A DNA stretch of 20,052 nt from a virus (lineage: Duplodnaviria > Heunggongvirae > Uroviricota > Caudoviricetes): IMG/VR virus record IMGVR_UViG_2534681705_000013, positions 1 through 20,052 of that record; one strand, given 5' to 3'. The first letter of the stretch is position 1. Every line of letters starts with the position of its first letter. The translations under genes and the position numbers were made by a program. The notes below the pieces were generated by a model, which was given only the letters and a program-made list of their open reading frames with translations, searched no databases and was not told the origin of the DNA. Below are positions 1,501 to 18,872 of this stretch, one piece after another.

Positions 1501-2888
1501 AAGAAACGCTCCATCTTACTGCTGTCAGTTCGTTTGTTGCTGTATCTGCGCGGCTGGGGCTGTTGCATTGGGGTGGAAAGAACCTGTGCGCTTTCCTGAT
1601 CCACAGGCAGAAAATGTCCGTTATAAAAACGCCGGTAAACCGTCCCCAGAGAACCGTTACGCTGTTTCGTGATATTGATTTCTGCGATGCCCCTGGCCTG
1701 CGTATCCGGGTTGTACACTTCATCCCTGTAAAGCATCAGAATGATGTCTGCATCCGCCTCTATTTCTCCGGAATTTTTCAGGTCTGAGTTCATCGGACGT
1801 TTATTGGGTCTGGACTCCACACCGCGGGAGAGCTGACTCAGCGCAATCAACGGAAAACCACCGGATTTTGCCAGGCCTTTAAGCCCCTTTGAGATTTCAC
1901 CCACGGCAAGGTCATGACGCCCCGTGGTTCGGGTTTTTATCAGTCCGAGATAATCAACCACCACCAGCGCCGTTTCCGGATGTTTAATCAGGTGGTGTTT
2001 CGTTGTTGCGCATATCTCGTCAATGGTCAGGTTCGCCTGGTCCACCATCCAGATATTGCGCCCGGTCATCCGCCCCACTCCTTGTGAGAAACGTGCCCAG
2101 TCTTCGTCTTCAAAGTGAGTGACAGATTTCAGGCGTGATACCGGCATTCCTCCAGCCGCAGATACCATGCGCTCACCAATCTGGATGTTCGCCATTTCCA
2201 TTGTGAACAGAAGAACACCATGCCCCTGCTCAGTCACCTTGTCGATGATATCCAGCGCCAGTTCGGTTTTACCCATCGAAGGACGAGCCGCAATAAATAC
2301 CAGGTCGCCGGGTTCCATACCGCCTGTTTTTGCGTCCAGTTCATCAATACCGGTCATCAGCGTCCTGGATTTCTCCAGCCCCTGATTCCGGCATTCAACA
2401 CGTTCAACCACTTCCGGAAGCACATCATCAATATGTACCGGCTGAATAATACCCTTCCCCGTCGACAATGAGGCCATCATGTTCTGCGCATCCTTCAGAG
2501 CATCTTCAGCTGCTTCACAGGTATGCGCATCACGTAATTTCTGCAGCGCCTCATTCAGCGTTTTTTCTGCATCGCGCAATGCGGCATTGCGCCGCAACGC
2601 TGCAACATAGTGCTCCAGTGAAGACTTCACCCAGGTTTTGCGCCCGGTATCAGTAATCACCGGGGCAAGTTCCGGCATCTCATTACACAGCAGCACGGGG
2701 TCAATCACACCTGAAACACGGGCCTGTCTGCAGATACCTGTGTAGATATCCCGATACGCTCGCACAGAAAAAACGTCCGCCGACAGTGTGGCCAGAATAT
2801 CCATCACTTCATGATCTGCCCCACGCAGAAAGAACGCGCCAATGACAGCGCCTTCCAGGTCATCGTTACGCCAGACTGGTGTTGTCAT
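1497..2888 (-). CDS. replicative DNA helicase, DnaB family (phage-encoded)
   Basis: 463 aa; Walker A in FIAARPSMGKTELALD, DnaB C-terminal RecA-like domain features (VVDYLGLI, ALSQLSR). 4-bp overlap with the upstream loader gene. Confidence 0.9.
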   Translation of the reverse strand: MTTPVWRNDDLEGAVIGAFFLRGADHEVMDILATLSADVFSVRAYRDIYTGICRQARVSGVIDPVLLCNEMPELAPVITDTGRKTWVKSSLEHYVAALRRNAALRDAEKTLNEALQKLRDAHTCEAAEDALKDAQNMMASLSTGKGIIQPVHIDDVLPEVVERVECRNQGLEKSRTLMTGIDELDAKTGGMEPGDLVFIAARPSMGKTELALDIIDKVTEQGHGVLLFTMEMANIQIGERMVSAAGGMPVSRLKSVTHFEDEDWARFSQGVGRMTGRNIWMVDQANLTIDEICATTKHHLIKHPETALVVVDYLGLIKTRTTGRHDLAVGEISKGLKGLAKSGGFPLIALSQLSRGVESRPNKRPMNSDLKNSGEIEADADIILMLYRDEVYNPDTQARGIAEINITKQRNGSLGTVYRRFYNGHFLPVDQESAQVLSTPMQQPQPRRYSNKRTDSSKMERFF

Positions 2889-3772
2889 GCCGCCACACCT
2901 CTGATACGAGAACGGTAGCTGGGCCAGTTAAACGACAACCAGTTGCGCCCCCCGTCTGTGATCCTGTCGGCAATGCGGGGGCTGATGAACGCCCACAACT
3001 CTTCCGGTGAAAGGTTGCTGATCAGGATGGTGGGCAAGATACTTTCGTACCGGGCGTTAATAATTTCCTGCAAAATAGCCATTTCAGCTGCACTGCCAAA
3101 CTGAACGCCGACTTCGTCGATGATTAGCAAATCCATAGACGCATAATGCTCAATAACTTCATCCGCTGTTTTTTCGCTGTCATTCCGCCAGCAGTTTTTC
3201 ACAGCACGGGTAAGGCGCATCACGTCGGTGATCTCCACACTGGCCAGATGATTACGGATGATGTGTTTTGCCATTGATACCGCCAGATGATTTTTCCCGG
3301 TACCGCAACTGCCAGTCATAACAAGACTGGTGCCGTTCTCCAGCATATCTGGCCAGTTCTCCGCATAGCGGCGACAGGCTGCAAGATTTCTGGCTGCGTC
3401 AGGATTAACCTCCAGATAGTTATCAAACTCACAGTCCCGAAAACGCAGGGCAATTCCGGCGTTATCAGTCAGCTCTTCCGCCTTGAGGGACGACAGCTCC
3501 ATGATCAAATCGTTGGCCTCAGCGATCAAGCAGTCAGGGCAGCATGAAATTTTTTCTCTGTCCTCGCCATTGCGATCGCTCCACACCAGTATATGCGTAT
3601 GGTATTTACCGTGTTTTTCGCAATACCCGCGACCTTCACGCATCAGGCAGGAACGATAAGGCCATGGCTTTTCGCCCTTCTGAGCAAATGCAATCTCTGC
3701 CCGTAACTCATCCATTCGCGCCTGTAGTCTTGTTTGTTGTTCACGCAGGTTAAACGTCATCATCGCTGTCAC
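2885..3772 (-). CDS. DnaC/IstB-like AAA+ helicase loader
   Basis: 295 aa; Walker A LVMTGSCGTGKNHLA and Walker B LLIIDEVG; Cys/His cluster near the N-terminus; sits between the O-like initiator and the DnaB-like helicase. Confidence 0.8.
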   Translation of the reverse strand: MTAMMTFNLREQQTRLQARMDELRAEIAFAQKGEKPWPYRSCLMREGRGYCEKHGKYHTHILVWSDRNGEDREKISCCPDCLIAEANDLIMELSSLKAEELTDNAGIALRFRDCEFDNYLEVNPDAARNLAACRRYAENWPDMLENGTSLVMTGSCGTGKNHLAVSMAKHIIRNHLASVEITDVMRLTRAVKNCWRNDSEKTADEVIEHYASMDLLIIDEVGVQFGSAAEMAILQEIINARYESILPTILISNLSPEELWAFISPRIADRITDGGRNWLSFNWPSYRSRIRGVAA

Positions 3773-3773
3773 C

Positions 3774-4598
3774 TCAGAATGTCAATTTGTCACTGGATTT
3801 ACCGAATTTGTCAGACATGGCACCAAGGCCAGACAGGACATCGACCTGTCGCTGTCGCCCACCTCCGGGAGCGGCTGGCTGTTGCCAGAAATCTTCGAAG
3901 TGACGATCGGGTCCAAAGAACGTCGCAGCCTGCTTCACGAACTGTGTGCCGGTATTTCCTGTAGCACGTACCCAGGCGGCATACCGCTTCACACCATCAA
4001 GCATGGTCTCCGGTTTTATTCCCTCCCTGATACGGGCTTTCCAGGCTTTGAAGGCTGCTGACTTGGAATTGCCACCAGCACGTTTGGGATATTCCTGCCA
4101 GGCCTGTTCAAATTCTGATGAATATCCCTGTCGGGCAGAACGCGCTGGTGCAGACGCGTCAGCGGATGCGCCAATAGTTGATTCATTGACTGGTTCTTTG
4201 ACTGGTTCAAAAGAGTGACTGGTTCTGGGTGAATCTCCTGCACTACCCCCTGGTGCAACTCCTGCACCACCTGGTGAATTTGCTGCACTAGGTAGTGAAT
4301 TATTTGCACTACCACCTGGTGAATCTTTTGCACCATCAAGACGAAGAAGATAAATATTGCTCGAGTTCCCTTTTTCACCTTTCCGGGAAACTTTTTTTAC
4401 CAGTCCGGATTCACAAAGAGCCGTAATATGATTCATCACAGAACGTTTGCTAATCTCGCACTGATCAGCAATATGCTGATAGCTGGGCCAGCACTCGCCC
4501 TGATCGCTGGCATTATCAGCCAGCTTAATCAGAACCAGTTTTCGCAACGGATTTCCCACGCGAATTTTCATCGCTTTCACCATCAGCTCCATGCTCAT
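3774..4598 (-). CDS. phage replication initiation protein (lambda O-like, N-terminal HTH)
   Basis: 274 aa; N-terminal winged-helix/HTH-like region (LRKLVLIKLADNASDQGECWPSYQHIADQCEISKRSV), a low-complexity Gly/Ser/Pro/Ala linker encoded by the iteron repeats, then a C-terminal domain; immediately upstream of the loader and helicase. Confidence 0.7.
   Translation of the reverse strand: MSMELMVKAMKIRVGNPLRKLVLIKLADNASDQGECWPSYQHIADQCEISKRSVMNHITALCESGLVKKVSRKGEKGNSSNIYLLRLDGAKDSPGGSANNSLPSAANSPGGAGVAPGGSAGDSPRTSHSFEPVKEPVNESTIGASADASAPARSARQGYSSEFEQAWQEYPKRAGGNSKSAAFKAWKARIREGIKPETMLDGVKRYAAWVRATGNTGTQFVKQAATFFGPDRHFEDFWQQPAAPGGGRQRQVDVLSGLGAMSDKFGKSSDKLTF
4187..4336. repeat. candidate phage replication origin: iteron-like direct repeats inside the O-like gene
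   Basis: Three copies of TGACTGGTTC (4187, 4198, 4216) followed by four ~20-bp repeats with core GGTGAAT-N6-7-TGCAC (about 4228, 4272, 4293, 4316), then an AT-rich stretch (~4336-4365). Confidence 0.55.
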
Positions 4599-4819: not shown

Positions 4820-5049
4820 GGATGTACCTCCTGCACATCAGCCATGAGCATTTTACTGGCTGTTTCCAGCGCCTGGTCGGCGCTAATTTGCATGACAGCC
4901 AGTGAATGAGGAACGAAAGTCCCGGCATATTCTGTTTCACTGGTGGCGTGCTTATGCGCCCTGTCTGCAATAACAGGGATGTCAATAAGCGCATCCATCA
5001 GAGTTTTAATTACCGTAACAGTGGTATCTGAATAATGGTTATTACACAT
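4816..5049 (-). CDS. hypothetical protein
   Basis: ORF-track ORF 4816..5121; preferred start is ATG at 5049 (MCNNHYSD…), preceded by GGGAGG and overlapping the stop of the upstream Rha-domain gene (ATGTGTAA). Confidence 0.4.
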   Translation of the reverse strand: MCNNHYSDTTVTVIKTLMDALIDIPVIADRAHKHATSETEYAGTFVPHSLAVMQISADQALETASKMLMADVQEVHP

Positions 5050-5407
5050 GACGCGCCTCCCGTTGATTACAGCGGAAAGCGGTGTGACTGAGACTGGTTT
5101 CAGTTTCATGGAATGCTTCAATGCAGCTCTCGTAGTACCGCATTGTGCGCAGACTTAACCCAAGCTGAAGCATCATCAGGCCATCAAGGGTGATGTAATA
5201 ACCACGCAGGGAGTCACCATAGATGTGATAAGTACCCGGTATGAAATTGCGGGTAAAAAACTCGCGTGAGCAGTTCAGATACTCGATTTTGTCGACGATG
5301 TTCTGGTGCATGCGCTTAAAGTGGCAGGCAACATGCAGGGAGAAAATAACGGCCTTGCCGTTGACAACTTCAATTTTCAGGTATGGGGAAGTTGGGACTG
5401 TAGCCAT
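5042..5407 (-). CDS. phage regulatory protein, Rha family
   Basis: C-terminal 122 aa of ORF 5042..5833: KAVIFSLHVACHFKRMHQNIVDKIEYLNCSREFFTRNF…GDSLRGYYITLDGLMMLQLG…IEAFHETE matches the Rha-family pattern. ATG at 5407 is preceded by GGAGG. The in-frame upstream extension to 5833 has a TTG start and low-complexity composition. Confidence 0.55.
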   Translation of the reverse strand: MATVPTSPYLKIEVVNGKAVIFSLHVACHFKRMHQNIVDKIEYLNCSREFFTRNFIPGTYHIYGDSLRGYYITLDGLMMLQLGLSLRTMRYYESCIEAFHETETSLSHTAFRCNQREARHV

Positions 5408-5794
5408 GATGGCAGCCTCCGTATGCAATGGATAACTTCCACCACCGGAGGTTCCAATCTCACTGGTGGTGAACTGGACAGGGTTGGAACTACCGGCGCA
5501 TACGGAAACCGGCGAGCCTTTCGGCTCCCCTGCCCAGCCCACCATAATTCTGGCGTGCGTGAGCGCGGACGATAAAAAAGACGCTGGCGCGTCGTATATC
5601 GCCGTATGCAATTCCGGGGTTCCAATCCCGGCACCCGCTTTATAAGGTGCAGGGACAGTGTAACGTCCCGAAATTGCAGAATCAATATTTAGGCTTGAAA
5701 CATTCATATGCTTACTGGTATTTTTACTAACGCAAATGTTCTTGGATGTTACTGGCTTACTTCTCAGTGAAGTTGCCTTTACCAACGTTGAGCG

Positions 5795-5822
5795 AGCCGG
5801 GTCACTACCCGGCTTTTTTTTC
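5795..5822 (+). terminator. plus-strand intrinsic terminator inside the minus-strand operon
   Basis: 8-bp stem AGCCGGGT/ACCCGGCT, loop CACT, followed by a run of eight T on the plus strand. On the minus strand the hairpin is preceded by the A-run, not followed by U, so it is not a terminator there. Confidence 0.55.
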
Positions 5823-6570
5823 ACCGCTGCCAACCAATAACCTGAAATAACCCCATTTTCGGGTGATACCAGCGAGTCCCTCGCGGTTCTGCTTCCTCCA
5901 TAACCCGATAAAAAGCAGCCATAAACGGTTCCACAGCAACAATTGCGCGACGTGACAACAATCCGTCCGGCGTCATGAACTCATGGGTGTCTGTAGGAAT
6001 TTGATAGGCGTTCACCAGATTGCGGCATTTATCATCTGACAAACCGGTTTTTGCTTTCAGTTGGCGATATCCGGCATAGCCCTCACGAATGGTACCCCTT
6101 TTGATTTGCTCAACTGTTTCGGCAACATGGCTGACTTTTTCTTCCACCTGAGTGATCCGTTTCTGCTGACGAACGGCTTCAAGAGCCATCGCAGCAACCA
6201 TTTCGATTTCGCTCATTGGCTTACGGATCTGTTCTTCCAGTTCGCGCCAGCGATCTACCAGGCGAGCAGTGAATTCAGGGCAGAGCTGTGCGACGACAAT
6301 GATGCTGTCGCGTTTACCTTGTTCGCCTTCGAAGATGTAAGCACCTACATTTCGTTTTAATCCTAAGTTGTTGATTATTTCGAAATTCGCCATTGGCGCA
6401 CTTCGAATAATCCCCTTATCCATGAGCCTTTCAATGCTGCGCTTAACATCTTTGTGTTGGCTACCCACCAACTCTGCGATCTCAACGCTGGTCATGGATG
6501 CTTTGTCGTTAAAAATTGCGGTGTTCACTGCCATCTCCTTACGGATAAATTCTTTTAAGATTCCGCACAT
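5821..6570 (-). CDS. phage regulatory protein, Rha/antirepressor-like DNA-binding domain
   Basis: 249-aa ORF; MTSVEIAELVGSQHKDVKRSIERL… fits the Rha-type motif. Start is ambiguous: ATG 6570, ATG 6534, or GTG 6528 (the last has AAGGAG at 6-nt spacing). Confidence 0.55.
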   Translation of the reverse strand: MCGILKEFIRKEMAVNTAIFNDKASMTSVEIAELVGSQHKDVKRSIERLMDKGIIRSAPMANFEIINNLGLKRNVGAYIFEGEQGKRDSIIVVAQLCPEFTARLVDRWRELEEQIRKPMSEIEMVAAMALEAVRQQKRITQVEEKVSHVAETVEQIKRGTIREGYAGYRQLKAKTGLSDDKCRNLVNAYQIPTDTHEFMTPDGLLSRRAIVAVEPFMAAFYRVMEEAEPRGTRWYHPKMGLFQVIGWQR

Positions 6571-6647: not shown

Positions 6648-6899
6648 ATGTCACAAAAAAACGATATTCCTGTTTTTCCTATTACAGCCTGGCAGGCTGG
6701 ACCATTGCCCGGTTATGGTGCGCTAGCATTAAAATTCCAGTACCTAGCTTCTCCTATGCAACCACTGGATTCAGCACAAGAAACTCAGTTCTTCGCGCTT
6801 ACTCCCGAAATGGCTGAGACTTTGATATCCGATCTGCGCCGACATATTGAGACGCTGAAAAAATCCGGTATTCACAGCCCACAAGAAAACAGGCATTAA
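6648..6899 (+). CDS. hypothetical protein
   Basis: 83-aa ORF with a strong SD (AAAGGAGGT) 6 nt upstream of the ATG; opposite orientation to the flanking minus-strand operon. Confidence 0.55.
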   Translation: MSQKNDIPVFPITAWQAGPLPGYGALALKFQYLASPMQPLDSAQETQFFALTPEMAETLISDLRRHIETLKKSGIHSPQENRH

Positions 6900-6929
6900 T
6901 CGAAAAAACGGTTGCCACATAATTTCTTG

Positions 6930-6962
6930 AAAAGCGTCGCGCACTGGCGCTTTTCATTTCTC
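6930..6962. terminator. possible bidirectional terminator between convergent genes
   Basis: AAAAGCG…CGCTTTT symmetric hairpin with an A-run before and a T-run after, between 6648..6899 (+) and the cro-like gene (-). Confidence 0.35.
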
Positions 6963-6983: not shown

Positions 6984-7193
6984 TCACTTCTCCTCCCCCG
7001 TGTGCGCTAAGCTTGGGTGTGTATATGGAATGTTCGGATCCAGATGGCAGAGAATGGCAACATCCTCCGGAACGCCCCGCGTTTTCCACTTTCCAACTCC
7101 CTGACTACCACGAGGCTTTCCTTTCTTTGGAAACCTACGGCCAATAGCGGCATTGGTTTTAAATTGAGTTTTTAATATTTCATAAAGGGTCAT
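6984..7193 (-). CDS. Cro/DicC-like small DNA-binding regulator
   Basis: 69 aa, basic; N-terminus LYEILKTQFKTNAAIG resembles Cro/DicC-type repressors; divergent from the cI-like gene across an operator-bearing intergenic region; GAGG 7 nt upstream of the ATG. Confidence 0.5.
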   Translation of the reverse strand: MTLYEILKTQFKTNAAIGRRFPKKGKPRGSQGVGKWKTRGVPEDVAILCHLDPNIPYTHPSLAHTGEEK

Positions 7194-7304
7194 TCTTTAG
7201 CCTCACACCGGATACTCTGTTATCCAAGAATGTTAAACGCGAGAATCCAAAGTATCAAGAAATTCTGTTACTTTAGTATCAACAGCCATGAAAGGAGAAG
7301 AAAA
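7194..7304. promoter_or_regulatory. divergent promoter/operator region (OR-like) between cro-like and cI-like genes
   Basis: Repeated half-site GTATCAA at 7252 and 7276, GATAC at 7211; 12-mer CCAAAGTATCAA at 7247 recurs exactly at 7986 on the other side of cI. Confidence 0.5.
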
Positions 7305-7961
7305 ATGAAGTCTTTAGGTGAACGCCTCATCAACGCACGACAAAAAGCTGGGTTAACGCAAGATGCGTTGGCTAAAAAAGCAGGGGTCACCAGAGTTGCA
7401 ATCAGTAAAGCCGAGCAAGGCCTTACAAAAAGTTTCAACGGTGACACCCTTTTTAAAGTCGCAGCTGCACTGCAGTGTTCACCGCAGTGGCTTCAGAACG
7501 GAGATGAAAAAGATAAGCATTGGGAAAATAATGTTAAGAGCTGCCCACAGAGAGACACAGCACACTCTTACCCTGTAATTAACTGGGTTCAGGCAGGATT
7601 ATTCGCAACCGCTGGTGATGACTACAACATGTATGATCAGGATAATTGGAGGCATTCTGTAAAATACGCTGGTGAGAGGGGGTTCTGGCTAGAAGTGCAC
7701 GGAGACTCAATGACTTCGCCCGCAGGAATAACATTTCCTGAAGGAATGTCGATCCTTGTCAACCCAGATAAAGAAGTTTTTTCAGGGTGTTACGTCATCG
7801 CCAGAAAAAAATCTACCAATGAAGCAACATTCAAAAAATATATTTCTGAAATGGGAAAGGCGTTTCTAAAACCCCTTAATCCACAATATCCAATCATAGA
7901 AATGGACAATGATTGCGAAATAGTAGGTGTTGTGGTTGATGCCAGGTGGGATATTTTCTGA
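7305..7961 (+). CDS. CI-like prophage repressor (N-terminal HTH, C-terminal S24/LexA-like peptidase domain)
   Basis: ORF-track ORF 7230..7961; true start is ATG at 7305 (AAAGGAGAAG SD). HTH LTQDALAKKAGVTRVAISKAE; C-terminal GDSM motif and lysine-containing region typical of self-cleaving LexA/CI repressors. Confidence 0.85.
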   Translation: MKSLGERLINARQKAGLTQDALAKKAGVTRVAISKAEQGLTKSFNGDTLFKVAAALQCSPQWLQNGDEKDKHWENNVKSCPQRDTAHSYPVINWVQAGLFATAGDDYNMYDQDNWRHSVKYAGERGFWLEVHGDSMTSPAGITFPEGMSILVNPDKEVFSGCYVIARKKSTNEATFKKYISEMGKAFLKPLNPQYPIIEMDNDCEIVGVVVDARWDIF

Positions 7962-12046: not shown

Positions 12047-12256
12047 GTGGGGCTGGATTGCGTGCCTATATCAACCTACTGCCGCGACGCGGGAGAAACG
12101 GTTGATGCCGTTAACAAACGGATACAAAGAGGAATATGGAAAGAAGGGGTTCATGTATTAAAAGTCGACGGAGTTAAAGAACGCTGGGTCGACTTAATAG
12201 AGGTTTCAAAATGGGCAAGAAAGAACAAGGATTATTATCTCTGCCAAGAGGAGTAA
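12047..12256 (+). CDS. putative excisionase (Xis-like DNA-binding protein)
   Basis: 69-aa ORF with GTG start and GAGGTG SD; overlaps the integrase start by 46 bp, the usual xis-int arrangement in lambdoid phages. Confidence 0.45.
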   Translation: MGLDCVPISTYCRDAGETVDAVNKRIQRGIWKEGVHVLKVDGVKERWVDLIEVSKWARKNKDYYLCQEE

Positions 12257-13395
12257 CTATTCGTAAGCATAAAACTGCTTCAACACTAGTTATCACTTTC
12301 ACATATAAAGGGGTTCTTTGCAGGGAGCCCCTGTCTCGGCTTGAGGCAAATACACGTGGTATTAAATATGCTGAGCGCCTGCTAGGGGAGATACAAAATC
12401 AGATCGCCAGCGGAACGTTTGAATATGCGAAATATTTCCCCAGTTCCAAAAAACTGGAGTTATTCGGTGTAGTAAAGAAAACCAAAAATATTAAGTCCTA
12501 TCTTGATGAATACCTGAAAATTTGCGTGAACCGCAATCTGTCGCCGTCAACCATTGGCGGTTACGAAAAATGTCTATCAGCACTATCAGAACTACATAAA
12601 CTACATGTAACAGAATTGACGCCTGCGGTACTAAAAAATTGGATAGCCAGCCGAAAAACTAAGCTGAAAACAATCAGGAACAACCTGTCATTTCTGCGCA
12701 GCGCCATTGATGAGGCTGTAACTGATGGCCTGTTGACTATTAACCCGGTAACTCTTGTCAGCGCCAGCCGGTATCACGTGGTCGACAGTAAACCGAACGC
12801 CGACGATTACGAAGTTGATCCGTTTGCGCCTGCGGAAACCAGTGCAATATATCAGCACTGCAAGTATCAGGAATGGCAGAATCTGTTCCGCTTCGCCTTC
12901 AATACAGGGCTACGCAGCTCTGAGCTATGCGCATTACGTTGGACCGATATCGACTTTATAGGTAATACAGCGCACATACAGGCAGCCAGTGTCGTAGGCG
13001 TATTGAAAGGCACCAAAACAAAAGCAGGCACCCGTAAAGTGGAATTAAACAGTGAGGCTCTGGCGGCTCTGCAAGCACAAAAGCAATTCACATTCATGAA
13101 AAGCGAGTTCATATTCAGTGACCCCAAAACGAAAGAGCCTTGGGCGAACGCTGATGCAATCCGCAAAAAAGCATGGGTTCCCACCCTTAAAAAAGCCGGT
13201 GTCCGTTACCGTAACCCCTACCAGACGCGACACACGTTCGCCACGCGGCACATCAGCCAAGGTGTAAATCTATTCTGGCTTGCTGGCCAGATGGGCCACA
13301 AAGGACCGGAAATGCTGTTCCGACATTATGGTCGCTACCTTTCGGCCTATGATGGCAAAACGTCACTTGATAGCCATGCACAACATTTTACGTGA
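12211..13395 (+). CDS. lambda-family tyrosine integrase
   Basis: 394 aa; lambda-Int-like N-terminus (MGKK…LPRGV.IRK), catalytic-domain signatures (TGLRSSELCALRW, HTFATRH, LAGQMGHK…RHYGRY). Confidence 0.9.
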   Translation: MGKKEQGLLSLPRGVTIRKHKTASTLVITFTYKGVLCREPLSRLEANTRGIKYAERLLGEIQNQIASGTFEYAKYFPSSKKLELFGVVKKTKNIKSYLDEYLKICVNRNLSPSTIGGYEKCLSALSELHKLHVTELTPAVLKNWIASRKTKLKTIRNNLSFLRSAIDEAVTDGLLTINPVTLVSASRYHVVDSKPNADDYEVDPFAPAETSAIYQHCKYQEWQNLFRFAFNTGLRSSELCALRWTDIDFIGNTAHIQAASVVGVLKGTKTKAGTRKVELNSEALAALQAQKQFTFMKSEFIFSDPKTKEPWANADAIRKKAWVPTLKKAGVRYRNPYQTRHTFATRHISQGVNLFWLAGQMGHKGPEMLFRHYGRYLSAYDGKTSLDSHAQHFT

Positions 13396-15139: not shown

Positions 15140-16381
15140 ATGGCAAGACAAACCAAACCTCTATCCGTTAAAGAAATAGAATCAGCCAAACCCAAGGAGG
15201 CGGACTACGTTCTCTATGATGGCGATGGCCTTGAGCTACTCATTAAATCCAGCGGGAGTAAAATCTGGCAGTTTCGCTACATTCGCCCTGTCACCAAGAA
15301 ACGAGCAAAGAAGAGCATAGGCTCCTACCCGTCAGTTACCCTTGCCGATGCCAGAAACTACCGTGCAGAGTCCCGCTCACTACTGGCTAAACAGATCGAT
15401 CCGCAGGAACATCAGCAAGAACAATTGCGCAGTTCGCTGGAAGCCAAAACCAACACTTTCCAACTCGTAGCTGAACGTTGGTGGAATGTGAAGAAAGCCA
15501 GTGTGACAGAGGACTATGCGGAAGATATCTGGCGCTCTCTTGAAAGAGACGTCTTTCCTGCGATTGGCGACGTTAGCGTTACAGATATTAAAGCTCATAC
15601 ACTGGTTCAGGCCGTACAACCGGTTCAGGCCAGAGGAGCACTGGAAACTGTTCGTCGCCTGTGCCAACGTATTAATGAGGTCATGATCTATGCCCAGAAC
15701 ACAGGGCTGATTGATGCTGTTCCCAGCGTTAATATCGGTAAAGCCTTCGAGAAGCCTCAGAAAAAGAACATGCCCAGCATTCGACCGGATCAGCTACCTC
15801 AGTTAATGCAGACGATGCGAACAGCCAGCATTAGCCTTTCCACACGCTGCCTGTTCATGTGGCAACTTCTTACTATTACCCGCCCTGCCGAAGCGGCTGA
15901 AGCTCTCTGGGAAGAGGTAGACATAGAAGCGCGAGAGTGGAAGATTCCTGCAGCACGCATGAAAATGAACCGCGACCATACTGTTCCATTGTCAGATGAA
16001 GCAATTGCGATACTAGAGATGATGAAGCCGTTAAGTGGAAATCGAGAATTTATCTTTCCCAGCCGCATCAAGCCAAACCAGCCGATGAACAGTCAGACCG
16101 TAAACGCATCGCTAAAACGCGCAGGTTTTGGTGGGGTGCTCGTTTCACACGGCCTGCGATCTATCGCCAGTACAGCCCTTAATGAGCAGGGATTTCCACC
16201 TGATGTTATTGAGGCTGCACTTGCTCATGTGGATAAGAATGAGGTTCGTCGTGCGTATAACCGTAGTGATTATCTTGAGCAGCGACGGCCTATGATGCAG
16301 TGGTGGGCTGATTTTGTGATGGCTGCAGATCACGGTAGTATGATTGAAGGAGGGATAAAGGCAATGCGGTTAGTTGGATGA
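15140..16381 (+). CDS. intA: P4/CP4-57-type tyrosine integrase
   Basis: 413 aa; N-terminus MARQTKPL…KPKEADYVLYDGDGLELLIKSSGSKIWQFRY characteristic of P4-family integrases; sits ~200 bp downstream of the tmRNA 3' end as CP4-57 intA does in E. coli K-12. Confidence 0.9.
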   Translation: MARQTKPLSVKEIESAKPKEADYVLYDGDGLELLIKSSGSKIWQFRYIRPVTKKRAKKSIGSYPSVTLADARNYRAESRSLLAKQIDPQEHQQEQLRSSLEAKTNTFQLVAERWWNVKKASVTEDYAEDIWRSLERDVFPAIGDVSVTDIKAHTLVQAVQPVQARGALETVRRLCQRINEVMIYAQNTGLIDAVPSVNIGKAFEKPQKKNMPSIRPDQLPQLMQTMRTASISLSTRCLFMWQLLTITRPAEAAEALWEEVDIEAREWKIPAARMKMNRDHTVPLSDEAIAILEMMKPLSGNREFIFPSRIKPNQPMNSQTVNASLKRAGFGGVLVSHGLRSIASTALNEQGFPPDVIEAALAHVDKNEVRRAYNRSDYLEQRRPMMQWWADFVMAADHGSMIEGGIKAMRLVG

Positions 16382-16519: not shown

Positions 16520-18807
16520 CTATTTTAAATCAGCCTTTGCGGCTCGAATATCTGCGTTTTTTGCTGAGTATTCCCATTCGTCAGCGATTCTAAATAGCAT
16601 TGCAGAAGTACGGACGCAGTGGGGCATTGAATTTGCCCATTCTCGGTACTGCTCAGCTAATATCCTTTCTTGGTTTCCACCTTCGTAACGCATACGAGCA
16701 AATACCCCCCTTTTATTGTACCTACCAATTTGTATACCTTGCTCTAACTCATCAGAAGATAATATTTCAATGATGTGCCGAATTGCTTCATGTGGCCAGG
16801 AATTATCTACTGAGCTATTAGGGGCATGTGCCAGAATTTTTCCTATTACATGATCAGTGATTTCTTGGCGATGATGCAATTTTGCTAAATGGCGTACATT
16901 CTCACACCAATCTTCAAGTTTATCTTGATCAATTTCATTGTCTATCTGCCCTGGTAGTATTCGTAATTTTTCAAGTAATCTGTATATAGAAGTAGCTCTT
17001 TTAACTTCCAACTCCGATGGTTCTGTTTGTTCATCTTCGTCACTACGATATACAATACATATTGCTTCTATAAAAACCTCTGGCTTTTTCATCATTAGAC
17101 GATGCAGGATAAGTGGCTCATCGCTATCCGGAAAACAAGGCAAGTAGGTCATTTCTTTAAATGCCAAATCTGTTTCAGAAACATCGTTACGTTGTTTGAG
17201 TTCATCAAAAACTTTTTTTACATAGTACGATAGCATTGTATCAAATTGGATATCCTGGCTATTTATTTCTTTAACGACTATATCTAGAAGATATAAAAGT
17301 GTTGTAGATGGAATCTCAGAAAGGCGTTGATTTGCTGATATAATAGCAGCAAGACCCCGGCCCCTTTCTATATATTTATCCATAAGAACAAATAAATCCG
17401 AAGTTTTACCCATCATTGCAATGGGTTGTTTTTGCAACCAATATTTTTCGTTGATGTTATCTTCAAACCCTTCAATAATGCTCCATATCTCTTGTGAGTC
17501 TCTTAACGATGCTAAGATTTTCCCAGCCCTATCAGGGGTAATTTTAAACTGTTTAAAATACACTTTTATTTTATTAAGCCATTCAGCACCAAAGCATTCA
17601 ACACCATATTGCATTAACAACCCACAAACTTCATCAATATTTTTTTTGTTGTTAATAAGCATTACAAACAAATCATTTAATTTTTCTTCATCCAACGAGA
17701 GTGCTGATATATGCCTTGCTGCAATAAAAACATTATTAACTTGTTGAAAAAGGTCTTTCACCCCAGACAAACCTAAAGTAAAGTATATTTCCCTAAGTTT
17801 TTCACTTCGCATTTCTTCGACAGAAGAAAAAATTCCGCCAGCATTTTCAATTGACTCTTCAATATCAGAATCCCAATCATTGAAAATCCATAAACTGGCT
17901 CTAACCATGTCAATTGGTTTATAATTATCAAGTATTTTCGCTATTTTTTCCATAGACTCAAATTTAAATGCCCAGTTCGCATCTGAATATTTTTTATGGC
18001 GAGAATACTCATGACGCAAAGCCTCCCATACGATGAACTGATCCTCTTCAGTTTGTTGAGAAAGGCAAAGTTCAAGATGAGAAAGTGTTTCATCTATTGC
18101 ATTCTCAGGGAATGAGCTTAAATGAGAGATTAGGATTTCCCATCTTGTTGGGAGTATACCTGCAAGTTTAATTGCTTCTTGGATAATAAAGATTTGCCCC
18201 TCCCAAACAACGCCCCACGTTAGTTTTTCTACATCTTTATCCGACTCTCTGAACTTCATTTTTTGGTTTTGATCAGAGGTATCATGGGAGCGAGGAAGGA
18301 GATTTTGTAACAAACTCCACCCAATACTAGGAACAATAGTGATAATTTTTTTTATAATTGCATTTCTAACTTTTACTGGTGCCCATGTATTAGGAGACCA
18401 TGCCAGAAAAATGGTTCTTAAACTATTAAGAGGGCGATCTGAGTAAGTTCCTCCGGGATCTATTACAGCGAGTTTTGCAAGACAGATTGCAGCGCGTAAT
18501 AGATATGTTTGTTCCCAAGCCAAGGCTTCCAATGCCCATTTTAATCCATGATAATGACTTCGAGGAGTTAACAGCCCTTTATCTTCATTGAATATTGGAG
18601 CAATCATTTCCCCATTGCCCTTAAGCAATTGCTCAAGGGCATCAAGGAAAGGGCCAGGGGCAGCTTCTGCCAGCAGCGGAAGTTGATCTCGCAAACTAAC
18701 AAATAGTCGATGGTCGTTAGCAAGTCCCGGAATACTCTGAACTATTTTGTTAACAAAATCTTGGGGTGTCATACCAGTAACCCGGAATTCGGCCTGTTCA
18801 TGTAATA
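16520..18807 (-). CDS. large alpha-helical protein of unknown function, adjacent to or 5'-interrupted by IS3
   Basis: ORF-track ORF 16520..18823 (767 aa); the first 5 codons including the TTG start lie inside the IS3 left inverted repeat. Strongly AT-rich; Leu/Glu/Lys/Trp-rich; no catalytic motif recognised by eye. Native start is either ATG at 18775 or beyond the IS. Confidence 0.65.
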
Positions 18808-18872
18808 TGATCTTACCCAGCAATAGTGGACACGCGGCTAAGTGAGTAAACTCTCAGTCAGAGGTGACTCAC

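What the first reader, a model, noticed from the sequence alone, without database searches (positions are those of the whole stretch)
5407..5833. Plus-strand intrinsic terminator and repeated segment inside the minus-strand early operon: possible antisense small RNA near the Rha genes
Seen in sequence: a strong plus-strand terminator at 5795-5822 (8-bp GC-rich stem plus eight T) at the junction of two minus-strand Rha-family genes; on the minus strand it cannot terminate (A-run precedes the hairpin). A weak sigma70-like promoter candidate (TTGAAA 5695-5700, ~17-18 nt spacer, TATTTT ~5719-5724) would give a ~90-nt plus-strand RNA. The segment also has internal direct repeats (CCGTATGCAAT at ~5420 and ~5604; GGTTCCAATC at ~5447 and ~5617). 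The minus-strand frame stays open across the segment but only with a TTG start and Ser/Pro/Gly/Ala/Thr-rich composition. Established knowledge: lambdoid phages use short antisense RNAs with intrinsic terminators (lambda OOP, P22 sar). Inference: this may be an analogous riboregulator of the downstream Rha gene.
Basis: partly seen in the sequence, partly recalled or inferred. Interest (0 to 1): 0.5.

Follow-up and report, generated by a model that had tools for sequence, protein, structure and literature searches.

The report
Phage C4/IsrK antisense-RNA antirepressor switch
The segment is a well-known type of prophage RNA switch, with two small RNAs on the same strand as the operon controlling translation of an antirepressor-like gene.

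Summary
The interpretation points at the wrong strand.

**What the segment is.** Window 5408-5707 holds a P1/P7 c4-type (P4 CI, Gifsy-1 IsrK) RNA cassette on the minus strand.
- IsrK lies at 5574-5650 (Rfam 63.6 bits) with its own promoter and terminator.
- A C4-like RNA lies at 5462-5549 (84.3 bits).

**What the repeats are.** The two "direct repeats" are the C4 target sites a1/b1, inside IsrK, and a2/b2, over the ribosome-binding site of the AUG at 5407.
- Across relatives, 7 a-alleles and 10 b-alleles change together at all three positions.
- All 540 C4 stem cells pair in 20 distinct relatives.

**The reading frame.** The frame in phase with the downstream Rha-N gene stays open from AUG 5707 (Pfam "Ash") in all 40 variants. 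It evolves like RNA, not like protein. The stretch 5708-5833, including the TTG start, is not conserved as coding.

**The plus-strand features.** The hairpin plus T8 at 5794-5822 is real and conserved. It lies in the Rha-Ash spacer, outside the cassette. A conserved extended -10 promoter candidate could produce a ~92-nt RNA, but nothing shows that it is expressed. It would cover no ribosome-binding site.

**Verdict.** Known kind, low novelty.

The parts
5821..6528 (-). Upstream Rha-family gene (235 aa). Its TGA stop is at 5821-5823.
   Evidence: Pfam Phage_pRha and PHROG 'anti-repressor Ant'. PGAP calls the identical DNA 'Rha family transcriptional regulator'.
5794..5822 (+). Plus-strand intrinsic-terminator-like hairpin. 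Arms 5795-5802 and 5807-5814, followed by T8 at 5815-5822, abutting the Rha stop codon.
   Evidence: It is conserved in all relatives of this Rha gene, with a T-run of 6-8. PhiP27-type relatives carry a different hairpin in the same orientation.
5695..5724 (+). Candidate extended -10 promoter on the plus strand: TTGAAA, 18 nt, TGgTATTTT. Hypothetical.
   Evidence: 9 of 12 plus TG. The -35, TG and -10 (TATTTT or TATCTT) are kept in spacer variants A, B and C. The site overlaps the minus-strand AUG at 5707 and its upstream region, which is a rival reason for the conservation.
5731..5822 (+). Hypothetical ~92-nt plus-strand RNA, running from the predicted start to the end of the T-run.
   Evidence: Folds at -31.4 kcal/mol, z = -3.8, while the opposite strand gives z = -2.8. 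The block TTCTTGGAT is conserved and the middle is variable. No Rfam family matches. No expression data are available.
5657..5685 (-). isrK promoter: -35 TTGATT at 5685..5680, a 17-nt spacer, -10 TACACT at 5662..5657, with the start at about 5650.
   Evidence: Read from the sequence. It is nearly invariant in relatives. The start coincides with position 1 of the Rfam isrK match. In Gifsy-1 this promoter drives isrK-orf45-anrP (PMC4825925).
5574..5650 (-). IsrK small RNA. It carries a1 (5618-5627) and b1 (5602-5612), and ends with the terminator hairpin 5580-5593 plus U6 at 5574-5579.
   Evidence: Rfam RF01394, 63.6 bits against a gathering score of 50, full length. It overlaps a sub-threshold RF03163 c4-a1b1 match. 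The terminator was found.
5462..5549 (-). C4-like antisense RNA. The b' loop CCGUAUGC is at 5498-5505 and the a' junction GUUCCAA at 5484-5490.
   Evidence: Rfam RF01695, 84.3 bits against a gathering score of 45, full length. Folds at -49 kcal/mol, z = -5.8. In 20 distinct relatives 100% of 540 stem cells pair and 8 pairs change on both sides, against 30-49% for slid controls.
5416..5459 (-). Target sites a2 (5450-5459) and b2 (5419-5429). b2 overlaps the Shine-Dalgarno GGAGG (5416-5420) of the AUG at 5405-5407.
   Evidence: The b'-b2 duplex of 12-13 bp covers the Shine-Dalgarno sequence, at -20.5 kcal/mol.
5042..5707 (-). 'Ash-Rha' open reading frame (221 aa from AUG 5707). It has internal in-phase AUGs at 5545 (orf45-like) and at 5407 (121-aa Rha-N protein with a strong Shine-Dalgarno).
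   Evidence: PGAP 'ash family protein'. Pfam Phage_ASH covers nt 5384-5662 and Phage_pRha lies downstream. PHROG 995 matches the full length. The frame is open in all 40 variants, with lengths of 297, 300 or 303 nt and distinct stops of 0/16/14 by frame. Variable columns are 41/40/33 by codon position, against 9/5/20 in the Rha-N part.

Best explanation
Window 5408-5707 is a minus-strand antisense-RNA control cassette of the P1/P7 c4, P4 CI and Gifsy-1 IsrK kind. It sits at the head of an antirepressor-like 'Ash-Rha' gene, which in turn heads the replication genes of a lambdoid prophage.

**Proposed working.**
1. A promoter at 5657-5685 starts transcription at about 5650.
2. Most transcripts stop at the hairpin plus U6 at 5574-5593, giving the 77-nt IsrK.
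3. Read-through transcripts, and transcripts arriving from the early promoter through Rha, carry the 88-nt C4-like RNA. In P1 and Gifsy-1 this RNA is cut out of the precursor.
4. The C4 b' loop and a' junction pair with b2 and a2 just upstream of the AUG at 5407. This covers its Shine-Dalgarno sequence and blocks translation of the Rha-N protein.
5. By polarity, this probably also lowers expression of the genes downstream.
6. IsrK carries the same two sites (a1/b1). It therefore competes for C4, or sequesters it in cis, and so relieves the block.

**What is shown.** RNA family membership, structure, strand, the positions of the sites, and their three-way co-variation.

**What is inferred.** Processing of the C4-like RNA, the direction of regulation, and polarity on downstream genes. 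These come from the P1 and Gifsy-1 experiments.

**The reading frame and the hairpin.** The reading frame through the cassette is kept open, so ribosomes can read through it. Its sequence nevertheless evolves under RNA constraints, not protein constraints. The plus-strand hairpin plus T8 at 5794-5822 is a separate feature of the Rha-Ash junction. It most likely stops transcription running antisense into Rha, whether or not a dedicated small RNA is made.
For: **Family and structure.**
- Rfam gives C4 at 84.3 bits and isrK at 63.6 bits. Both are full length, on the minus strand, and above their gathering scores.
- The C4 fold has z = -5.8.
- All stem cells pair in 20 distinct relatives, with 8 doubly changed pairs. 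Several G.U pairs are possible only on the minus strand.

**Pairing sites.**
- The exact repeats and their complements are confirmed.
- There are 7 a' and 10 b' alleles in shuffled combinations. Each matches its own a1/a2 or b1/b2, with cognate duplexes of 6.7-9.8 bp against about 4.3 bp for non-cognate pairs.
- The b'-b2 duplex covers GGAGG.

**Transcription signals.** The promoter is nearly invariant and its start coincides with model position 1. The IsrK terminator was found.

**The same arrangement elsewhere.**
- Gifsy-1: isrK, orf45/STnc1160, anrP. The authors note homology to P4 seqA and CI (PMC4825925).
- APSE phages (PMC7313666).
- P1 immI (PMC8198154).

**Operon context.** O-like, DnaC-like, DnaB and Q genes lie downstream.
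Against: - There is no transcript, processing or reporter data for this locus.
- The published Gifsy-1 model is phrased in terms of orf45 ribosome-binding-site sequestration and alternative folds, not a2/b2 occlusion, so the exact logic here may differ.
- The frame through the RNAs is under selection to stay open. Translation from AUG 5707 or 5545 may therefore matter in ways the RNA-only model ignores.
- The c4-a1b1 Rfam match is below its gathering score (23.8 against 46.7).
Confidence: 0.85

Rival explanations
1. A plus-strand promoter at 5695-5724 and the terminator at 5794-5822 make a discrete ~92-nt antisense RNA, in the manner of OOP or sar. This RNA regulates a neighbouring Rha-family gene, for example by pairing with read-through mRNA in the Rha-Ash spacer and triggering cleavage.
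For: - The terminator is strong and oriented for the plus strand.
- The -35, the TG and the -10 are kept in three spacer variants whose middle parts differ by indels not divisible by three.
- The candidate promoter matches consensus better (9 of 12 plus TG) than the isrK promoter does (8 of 12).
- Two independent stem variants are G.U on the plus strand and C.A on the minus strand.
- PhiP27-type relatives carry an unrelated hairpin in the same orientation at the same junction.
- The position matches that of lambda OOP, between the cII-position gene and the replication genes.
Against: - No Rfam family matches. The best plus-strand matches have E 0.37-0.72 and are terminator-only.
- The count of promoter-like sites is at chance level.
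- There are only three independent spacer variants.
- The conserved letters overlap the minus-strand AUG at 5707 and its upstream region.
- The RNA would overlap only the Rha stop codon and no ribosome-binding site.
- There is no convincing similarity to lambda oop.
- No significant trans target was found in the window.
- Distant Rha homologues have no such hairpin.
Confidence: 0.3
2. The hairpin plus T-run is only an insulator or a junction relic. It stops stray plus-strand transcription, from the back of the isrK promoter region or from the replication genes, before it runs antisense through Rha towards the immunity region. No dedicated functional RNA is made.
For: - The orientation and strength of the hairpin.
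- It is tied to the Rha-side module. Homology of the isrK cassette in other contexts stops near 5688, and cassettes behind ymfL or DUF4222 have no spacer and no hairpin.
- Two unrelated hairpins sit at the same junction.
Against: It does not explain the conservation of the -35, TG, -10 and TTCTTGGAT blocks across spacer variants. The minus-strand start region of the Ash frame could explain that conservation instead.
Confidence: 0.45
3. The segment is simply the N-terminal coding part (the 'Ash domain') of one protein, and the repeats are coding repeats. Any RNA structure is incidental.
For: - Pfam Phage_ASH at 5.9e-17, and PGAP and PHROG annotations.
- The in-phase frame has 0 stops against 16 and 14 distinct stop sites in the other frames.
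- All indels are multiples of three.
- In other contexts the frame starts by ATGA overlap with the upstream gene.
Against: - Variable columns fall evenly over the codon positions (41/40/33). In the adjacent Rha-N coding part they are 9/5/20.
- Changes are compensatory in RNA stems and co-vary across three distant sites.
- In P1-like phages and in APSE no frame spans the RNAs, and in VT2-Sakai only a small separate one does.
- The stretch 5708-5833 has in-frame stops and T-run length changes in relatives, so the 263-aa TTG frame is not conserved.
Confidence: 0.05
4. The hairpin acts on the minus-strand mRNA, as a 3' stabiliser or processing site of the Rha message, or as a weak terminator in the sense direction.
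For: It sits directly after the Rha stop codon. The same hairpin also forms in the minus-strand RNA at -17.5 kcal/mol, z = -3.1.
Against: - No U-run follows it on the minus strand.
- The two known stem variants break pairing on the minus strand.
- The homopolymer is on the wrong side of the hairpin.
Confidence: 0.12

Closest known systems
Gifsy-1 isrK-orf45(STnc1160)-anrP locus of Salmonella (Hershko-Shalev et al. 2016, PMC4825925)
   Same: - The same two Rfam families in the same order, upstream of an antirepressor-like gene.
- IsrK has its own promoter and a leaky terminator.
- An AUG is conserved at about +106 of the transcript (5545 here), inside the C4-like RNA.
- The short RNA shares its sequence with the 5' part of the long mRNA.
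   Different: - Here the upstream frame is fused in phase with the downstream gene rather than ending before it.
- The frame is open back to an AUG (5707) upstream of the isrK promoter.
- The cassette lies between a Rha gene and the replication genes, not downstream of antQ.
P1/P7 immI operon: c4 antisense RNA, icd, ant (Citron and Schuster 1990; summarised in PMC8198154)
   Same: - An RNA of the C4 family with a' and b' elements.
- Two target pairs, one upstream (a1/b1) and one downstream (a2/b2). The downstream pair lies over the ribosome-binding site of the next gene.
- Allelic a and b specificities, as between P1 and P7.
   Different: - The downstream gene is a Rha-N protein, not icd/ant.
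- The a1/b1 element is an independently terminated small RNA (IsrK).
- A reading frame runs through the RNAs. None does in the P1-like phage examined.
P4 CI RNA with seqA/seqB/seqC
   Same: - The Rfam C4 and isrK models detect CI and seqA relatives.
- The RNA is encoded inside a Bro-network ('Ash') gene (PMC10111431).
- It sits upstream of replication genes.
   Different: P4 acts through premature transcription termination. Whether that happens here was not tested.
Lambda OOP and P22 sar cis-antisense RNAs
   Same: This comparison concerns only the hypothetical plus-strand unit.
- It would be a short RNA on the opposite strand with a strong intrinsic terminator.
- It lies between the cII-position gene and the replication or antirepressor genes.
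   Different: - No sequence or family similarity.
- It overlaps only a stop codon, whereas OOP overlaps the 3' part of cII (about 55 nt from my own recollection, not checked here) and sar covers the ant ribosome-binding site.
- Expression is unknown.

Membership tests
Rfam RF01695 C4 antisense RNA | Covariance-model score above the curated gathering score over the full model | tested here: met
   84.3 bits against 45, model positions 1-87 of 87, minus strand 5462-5549.
Rfam RF01695 C4 antisense RNA | A long closing stem with two internal hairpins, supported by compensatory change | tested here: met
   All 540 cells pair in 20 distinct relatives. Eight pairs change on both sides. Slid controls pair at 30-49%.
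P1/P7 c4-type immunity system | a' and b' elements complementary to one site pair upstream (a1/b1) and one downstream (a2/b2), with the downstream pair at the ribosome-binding site of the next gene | tested here: met
   Exact complements were found. There is three-way co-variation over 7 a and 10 b alleles. The b'-b2 duplex covers GGAGG, 8 nt before the AUG at 5407.
P1/P7 c4-type immunity system | The mature RNA is released from the operon transcript by RNase P and represses antirepressor synthesis | not testable with these tools
   The only observation is that CC directly after the closing stem is invariant in relatives. No cleavage or reporter data exist.
Rfam RF01394 isrK | Covariance-model score above the gathering score, with its own promoter and intrinsic terminator | tested here: met
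   63.6 bits against 50, model positions 1-77 of 77. The promoter TTGATT-17-TACACT ends 7 nt before position 1. The hairpin plus U6 was found.
Rfam RF01394 isrK | Hfq binding and trans-activation of the downstream antirepressor gene | not testable with these tools
   Known only for Gifsy-1 (PMC4825925).
Rfam RF03163 c4-a1b1 | Score above the gathering score | tested here: not met
   23.8 bits against 46.7 at 5611-5663. The same DNA is claimed by isrK.
Pfam PF10554 Phage_ASH (as a protein domain) | Profile match above the cut-off | tested here: met
   62.5 bits against 26, covering residues that map to nt 5384-5662.
Pfam PF10554 Phage_ASH (as a protein domain) | Sequence evolving under protein-level purifying selection | tested here: not met
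   Variable columns are 41/40/33 by codon position, against 9/5/20 in the adjacent Rha-N part. Only the openness of the frame is conserved.
Cis-antisense small RNA of the lambda OOP or P22 sar type (plus-strand unit) | Intrinsic terminator on the strand opposite to the operon | tested here: met
   The pattern is conserved.
Cis-antisense small RNA of the lambda OOP or P22 sar type (plus-strand unit) | A functional promoter on that strand | tested here: inconclusive
   A 9-of-12 match plus TG is kept in three spacer variants. However, such sites occur at chance frequency, and this one overlaps the minus-strand AUG at 5707.
Cis-antisense small RNA of the lambda OOP or P22 sar type (plus-strand unit) | Overlap with the coding end or ribosome-binding site of the regulated gene | tested here: not met
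   The predicted RNA at 5731-5822 overlaps only 2 nt of the Rha stop codon. It ends 11 nt or more short of the region before the AUG at 5707.
Cis-antisense small RNA of the lambda OOP or P22 sar type (plus-strand unit) | Sequence or structure similarity to the known RNAs | tested here: not met
   No Rfam match has E below 0.37 on the plus strand. The alignment with the lambda oop strand shows no convincing similarity.

The most novel reading that the evidence does not exclude
The Rha-Ash junction carries a third RNA gene. This would be a ~92-nt plus-strand RNA made from an extended -10 promoter placed back to back with the isrK promoter and ended by the T8 terminator. It would pair with early-operon read-through transcripts in the spacer and uncouple, or destabilise, Rha and Ash-Rha expression. 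In position it would be an OOP analogue, layered on top of a C4/IsrK switch.
Probability: 0.3. Interest if true: 0.45.

Novelty: already known. Interest (0 to 1): 0.22.

Why it matters
- **Annotation.** Pipelines label this DNA only as an "ash family protein". In fact it encodes two regulatory RNAs that probably gate an antirepressor-like protein and sit ahead of the prophage replication genes. DNA similar to 5380-5860 is found in 1028 of 5426 complete E. coli genomes.
- **Specificity.** The combinatorial a/b alleles look like a set of immunity specificities. These could decide which co-resident prophages cross-regulate each other.
- **Gene prediction.** This is a clear case where a Pfam "domain" is mostly the translation of structured RNA.
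- **The plus-strand unit.** It would be a modest addition to knowledge only if it is expressed.

Tried and rejected
- **tRNA-like genes.** GGTTCCAATC resembles a T-loop, but ARAGORN found none.
- **Known plus-strand RNA families.** Only terminator-level matches appeared, at E 0.37-0.72. Nothing was found at the phiP27 junction except a chance-level match at E 0.12.
- **Homology to lambda oop.** The alignment is unconvincing.
- **A general link between Rha genes and antisense hairpins.** Thirteen Rha homologues from other species have overlapping or adjacent next genes and no hairpin.
- **More spacer diversity.** A further 109 viral loci and several E. coli loci gave only the same three spacer types plus the phiP27 type.
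- **Trans targets of the hypothetical plus RNA.** The conserved block's complement, ATCCAAGAAT, occurs at 7222-7231, next to an upstream ATG of the CI frame. That is chance level: 3 matches against 1.4 expected, and 18 of 100 shuffles reach it. Duplex scanning gave nothing beyond the expected extremes.
- **The 263-aa TTG frame as one protein.** Rejected for the stretch 5708-5833.
Full report
**Setting.** The window is the early region of a lambdoid prophage of E. coli.
- DNA identical to 5380-5860 occurs in strain 52F4.
- The minus strand carries the rightward early operon in this order: a Cro-like gene (6984-7193), a Rha-family gene (5821-6528), the segment in question, a Rha-N gene ending at 5042, two small genes, an O-like replication gene (3774-4598), a DnaC-like gene (2885-3772), DnaB (1497-2888) and Q (896-1243).
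- The CI repressor (7305-7961) and an integrase lie on the plus strand.

**Check of the observation.**
- The hairpin (arms 5795-5802 and 5807-5814) followed by T8 at 5815-5822 is a textbook plus-strand terminator pattern. On the minus strand an A-run precedes it and no U-run follows.
- The promoter-like site is TTGAAA (5695-5700), 18 nt, TG, TATTTT (5719-5724), matching 9 of 12. Such sites occur at chance frequency in this region.
- The two direct repeats are exact: 5419-5429 with 5602-5612, and 5450-5459 with 5618-5627.
- The 263-aa TTG frame exists.

**What the segment is.**
- Rfam finds two families above their curated thresholds, both on the minus strand. These are a C4 antisense RNA at 5462-5549 (84.3 bits, full model) and isrK at 5574-5650 (63.6 bits, full model).
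- A sub-threshold match to the 'a1, b1 targets of C4' family overlaps isrK. ARAGORN finds no tRNA.
- The C4 sequence folds at -49 kcal/mol, z = -5.8.
- In 20 distinct relatives every one of 540 stem cells forms a pair, and 8 pairs change on both sides. Pairing falls to 30-49% when partners are slid by one to three columns.
- Several invariant G.U pairs fix the strand as minus.
- A promoter (TTGATT 5685..5680, 17 nt, TACACT 5662..5657) ends 7 nt before position 1 of the isrK match and is almost invariant in relatives.
- IsrK ends with a hairpin plus U6 at 5593..5574.

**What the repeats are.**
- In P1 and P7, C4 RNA carries two elements, a' and b'. They pair with one site pair upstream of c4 and one downstream, at the ribosome-binding site of the next gene (background: Citron and Schuster 1990, as summarised in PMC8198154 and PMC7313666).
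a1 and b1 lie inside IsrK. a2 and b2 lie just before the AUG at 5407.
- The complementary a' (5484-5490) and b' (5498-5505) lie in the junction and the second loop of the C4 fold.
- The b'-b2 duplex of 12-13 bp covers the GGAGG that sits 8 nt before the AUG.
- Among relatives fetched through the neighbouring Rha protein there are 7 a' and 10 b' alleles in shuffled combinations.
- In every case a1 and a2, or b1 and b2, carry the matching change. Cognate duplexes are 6.7-9.8 bp and non-cognate ones about 4.3 bp.
- This three-way co-variation is strong comparative evidence that the pairings are functional. It suggests a set of distinct specificities.

**Mechanism.**
- The arrangement is the one studied in Gifsy-1. 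There the isrK promoter drives isrK-orf45-anrP, and short IsrK ends at a leaky terminator.
- In Gifsy-1 the read-through mRNA is translationally silent until short IsrK binds it, and a stable RNA (STnc1160) is processed from the region downstream of IsrK. The authors note the homology to P4 seqA and CI RNA (PMC4825925).
- Combining this with the P1 model, the most likely working here is as follows. The C4-like RNA occludes a2/b2, and with them the ribosome-binding site of the 121-aa Rha-N protein. IsrK carries identical sites and so titrates or sequesters C4, relieving the block.
- The cassette heads a tightly packed operon with overlapping stops and starts down to the replication genes. A translation block could therefore also reduce their transcription by polarity, as in P1 and P4.
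- The RNA identities, the strand, the site positions and the co-variation are shown. Processing, direction of control and polarity are inferred.

**The open frame.**
- PGAP annotates the identical DNA as an 'ash family protein' starting at the AUG at 5707.
- Pfam Phage_ASH matches residues that map to nt 5384-5662, which is precisely the RNA cassette.
- In 40 distinct variants the frame in phase with the AUG at 5407 has no stop between 5707 and 5408. The segment length is always 297, 300 or 303 nt. The other two frames carry 16 and 14 distinct stop sites. By chance an open frame of this length and composition is expected about 3% of the time.
- In phiP27 and e14-like contexts the same frame begins by overlapping the stop of the upstream gene. 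So the frame is maintained.
- Variable columns nevertheless fall evenly on codon positions (41/40/33). In the adjacent Rha-N coding part they fall 9/5/20.
- In P1-like RCS47 and in APSE-7 no frame spans the RNAs. In VT2-Sakai there is only a small separate frame, as with Gifsy-1 orf45.
- The RNAs are therefore the universal core. In this lineage ribosomes can read through them, but the 'domain' evolves as RNA. That immunity RNAs can lie inside Bro-network genes has been noted before (PMC10111431).
- The upstream stretch 5708-5833 is not coding. Relatives have in-frame stops there, indels not divisible by three, and T-runs of 6-8.

**The plus-strand unit.**
- The hairpin and the candidate promoter lie in the 114-nt spacer between the Rha stop and the AUG at 5707, outside the cassette.
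- Homology of the cassette in other genomic contexts stops near 5688, so this unit travels with the Rha gene.
- Among 109 viral contigs and several genomes only three spacer types occur.
- All three keep TTGAAA, the TG, TATTTT or TATCTT, a block TTCTTGGAT, and the terminator. The middle differs and in each type forms a different small hairpin.
- PhiP27-type relatives carry an unrelated hairpin, again followed by a T-rich run on the antisense strand. It lies between Rha and a Bro-N antirepressor gene, with isrK and C4 further downstream.
- Two single-base stem variants, one in each hairpin type, give G.U on the antisense strand and C.A on the operon strand.
- These points favour a plus-strand function.
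- Against a dedicated regulator:
  - No family match.
  - No similarity to lambda oop.
  - No overlap with any ribosome-binding site.
  - Only three independent variants.
  - Overlap of the conserved letters with the start region of the Ash frame.
  - Absence of the hairpin from Rha homologues in other species.
A plain insulating terminator is at least as likely.

**Novelty and verdict.**
- The main content of the segment is a member of well-described families. Similar DNA is present in about a fifth of complete E. coli genomes.
- The finding is ordinary. The only open element is the untested plus-strand unit.

Noticed in passing
window 6648-6956: An 83-aa gene lies on the plus strand between the Cro-like gene and Rha. 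It has a strong ribosome-binding site (AAGGAGG) and its own terminator at 6928-6956. In other words, it is a moron-like insert antisense to the early operon. It matches PHROG 10846, of unknown function.
   Followed up: partly
L002 2869-3420: One relative carries two tandem isrK-C4 cassettes. isrK is at 2869-2945 and 3238-3313, and C4 at 2970-3057 and 3330-3420.
   Followed up: no
L031 2700-3824 (phage phiP27): A Bro-N antirepressor gene lies between Rha and the isrK-C4 cassette. An unrelated antisense-oriented hairpin plus T-rich run lies at 2713-2733. A weak promoter-like site (TTGATT, 18 nt, TGaTATTGT) lies inside the start of the antirepressor gene on the antisense strand. This layout recalls P22 sar.
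   Followed up: partly
window 5607-5618 and 5667-5678: A 12-nt inverted repeat (92%) links the spacer of the isrK promoter with the a1-b1 linker of IsrK. It could form only in transcripts that arrive from upstream, and it might change the IsrK fold in early-operon read-through RNA.
   Followed up: no
window 5380-5860 versus 6540 onwards; L001: The strain with a 100% match over the segment has a different Cro/CI module upstream of Rha. The window is therefore a mosaic with respect to that genome.
   Followed up: partly
window 12211-13395 and 15140-16381: Two tyrosine integrase genes lie 1.7 kb apart on the plus strand, which suggests two adjacent integrated elements. A 767-aa frame at 16520-18823 (minus strand) has no Pfam match.
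   Followed up: no
window 7222-7231: ATCCAAGAAT is the near-complement of the conserved TTCTTGGAT block of the hypothetical plus RNA. It lies at an upstream in-frame ATG of the CI reading frame. By count this is chance level.
   Followed up: partly
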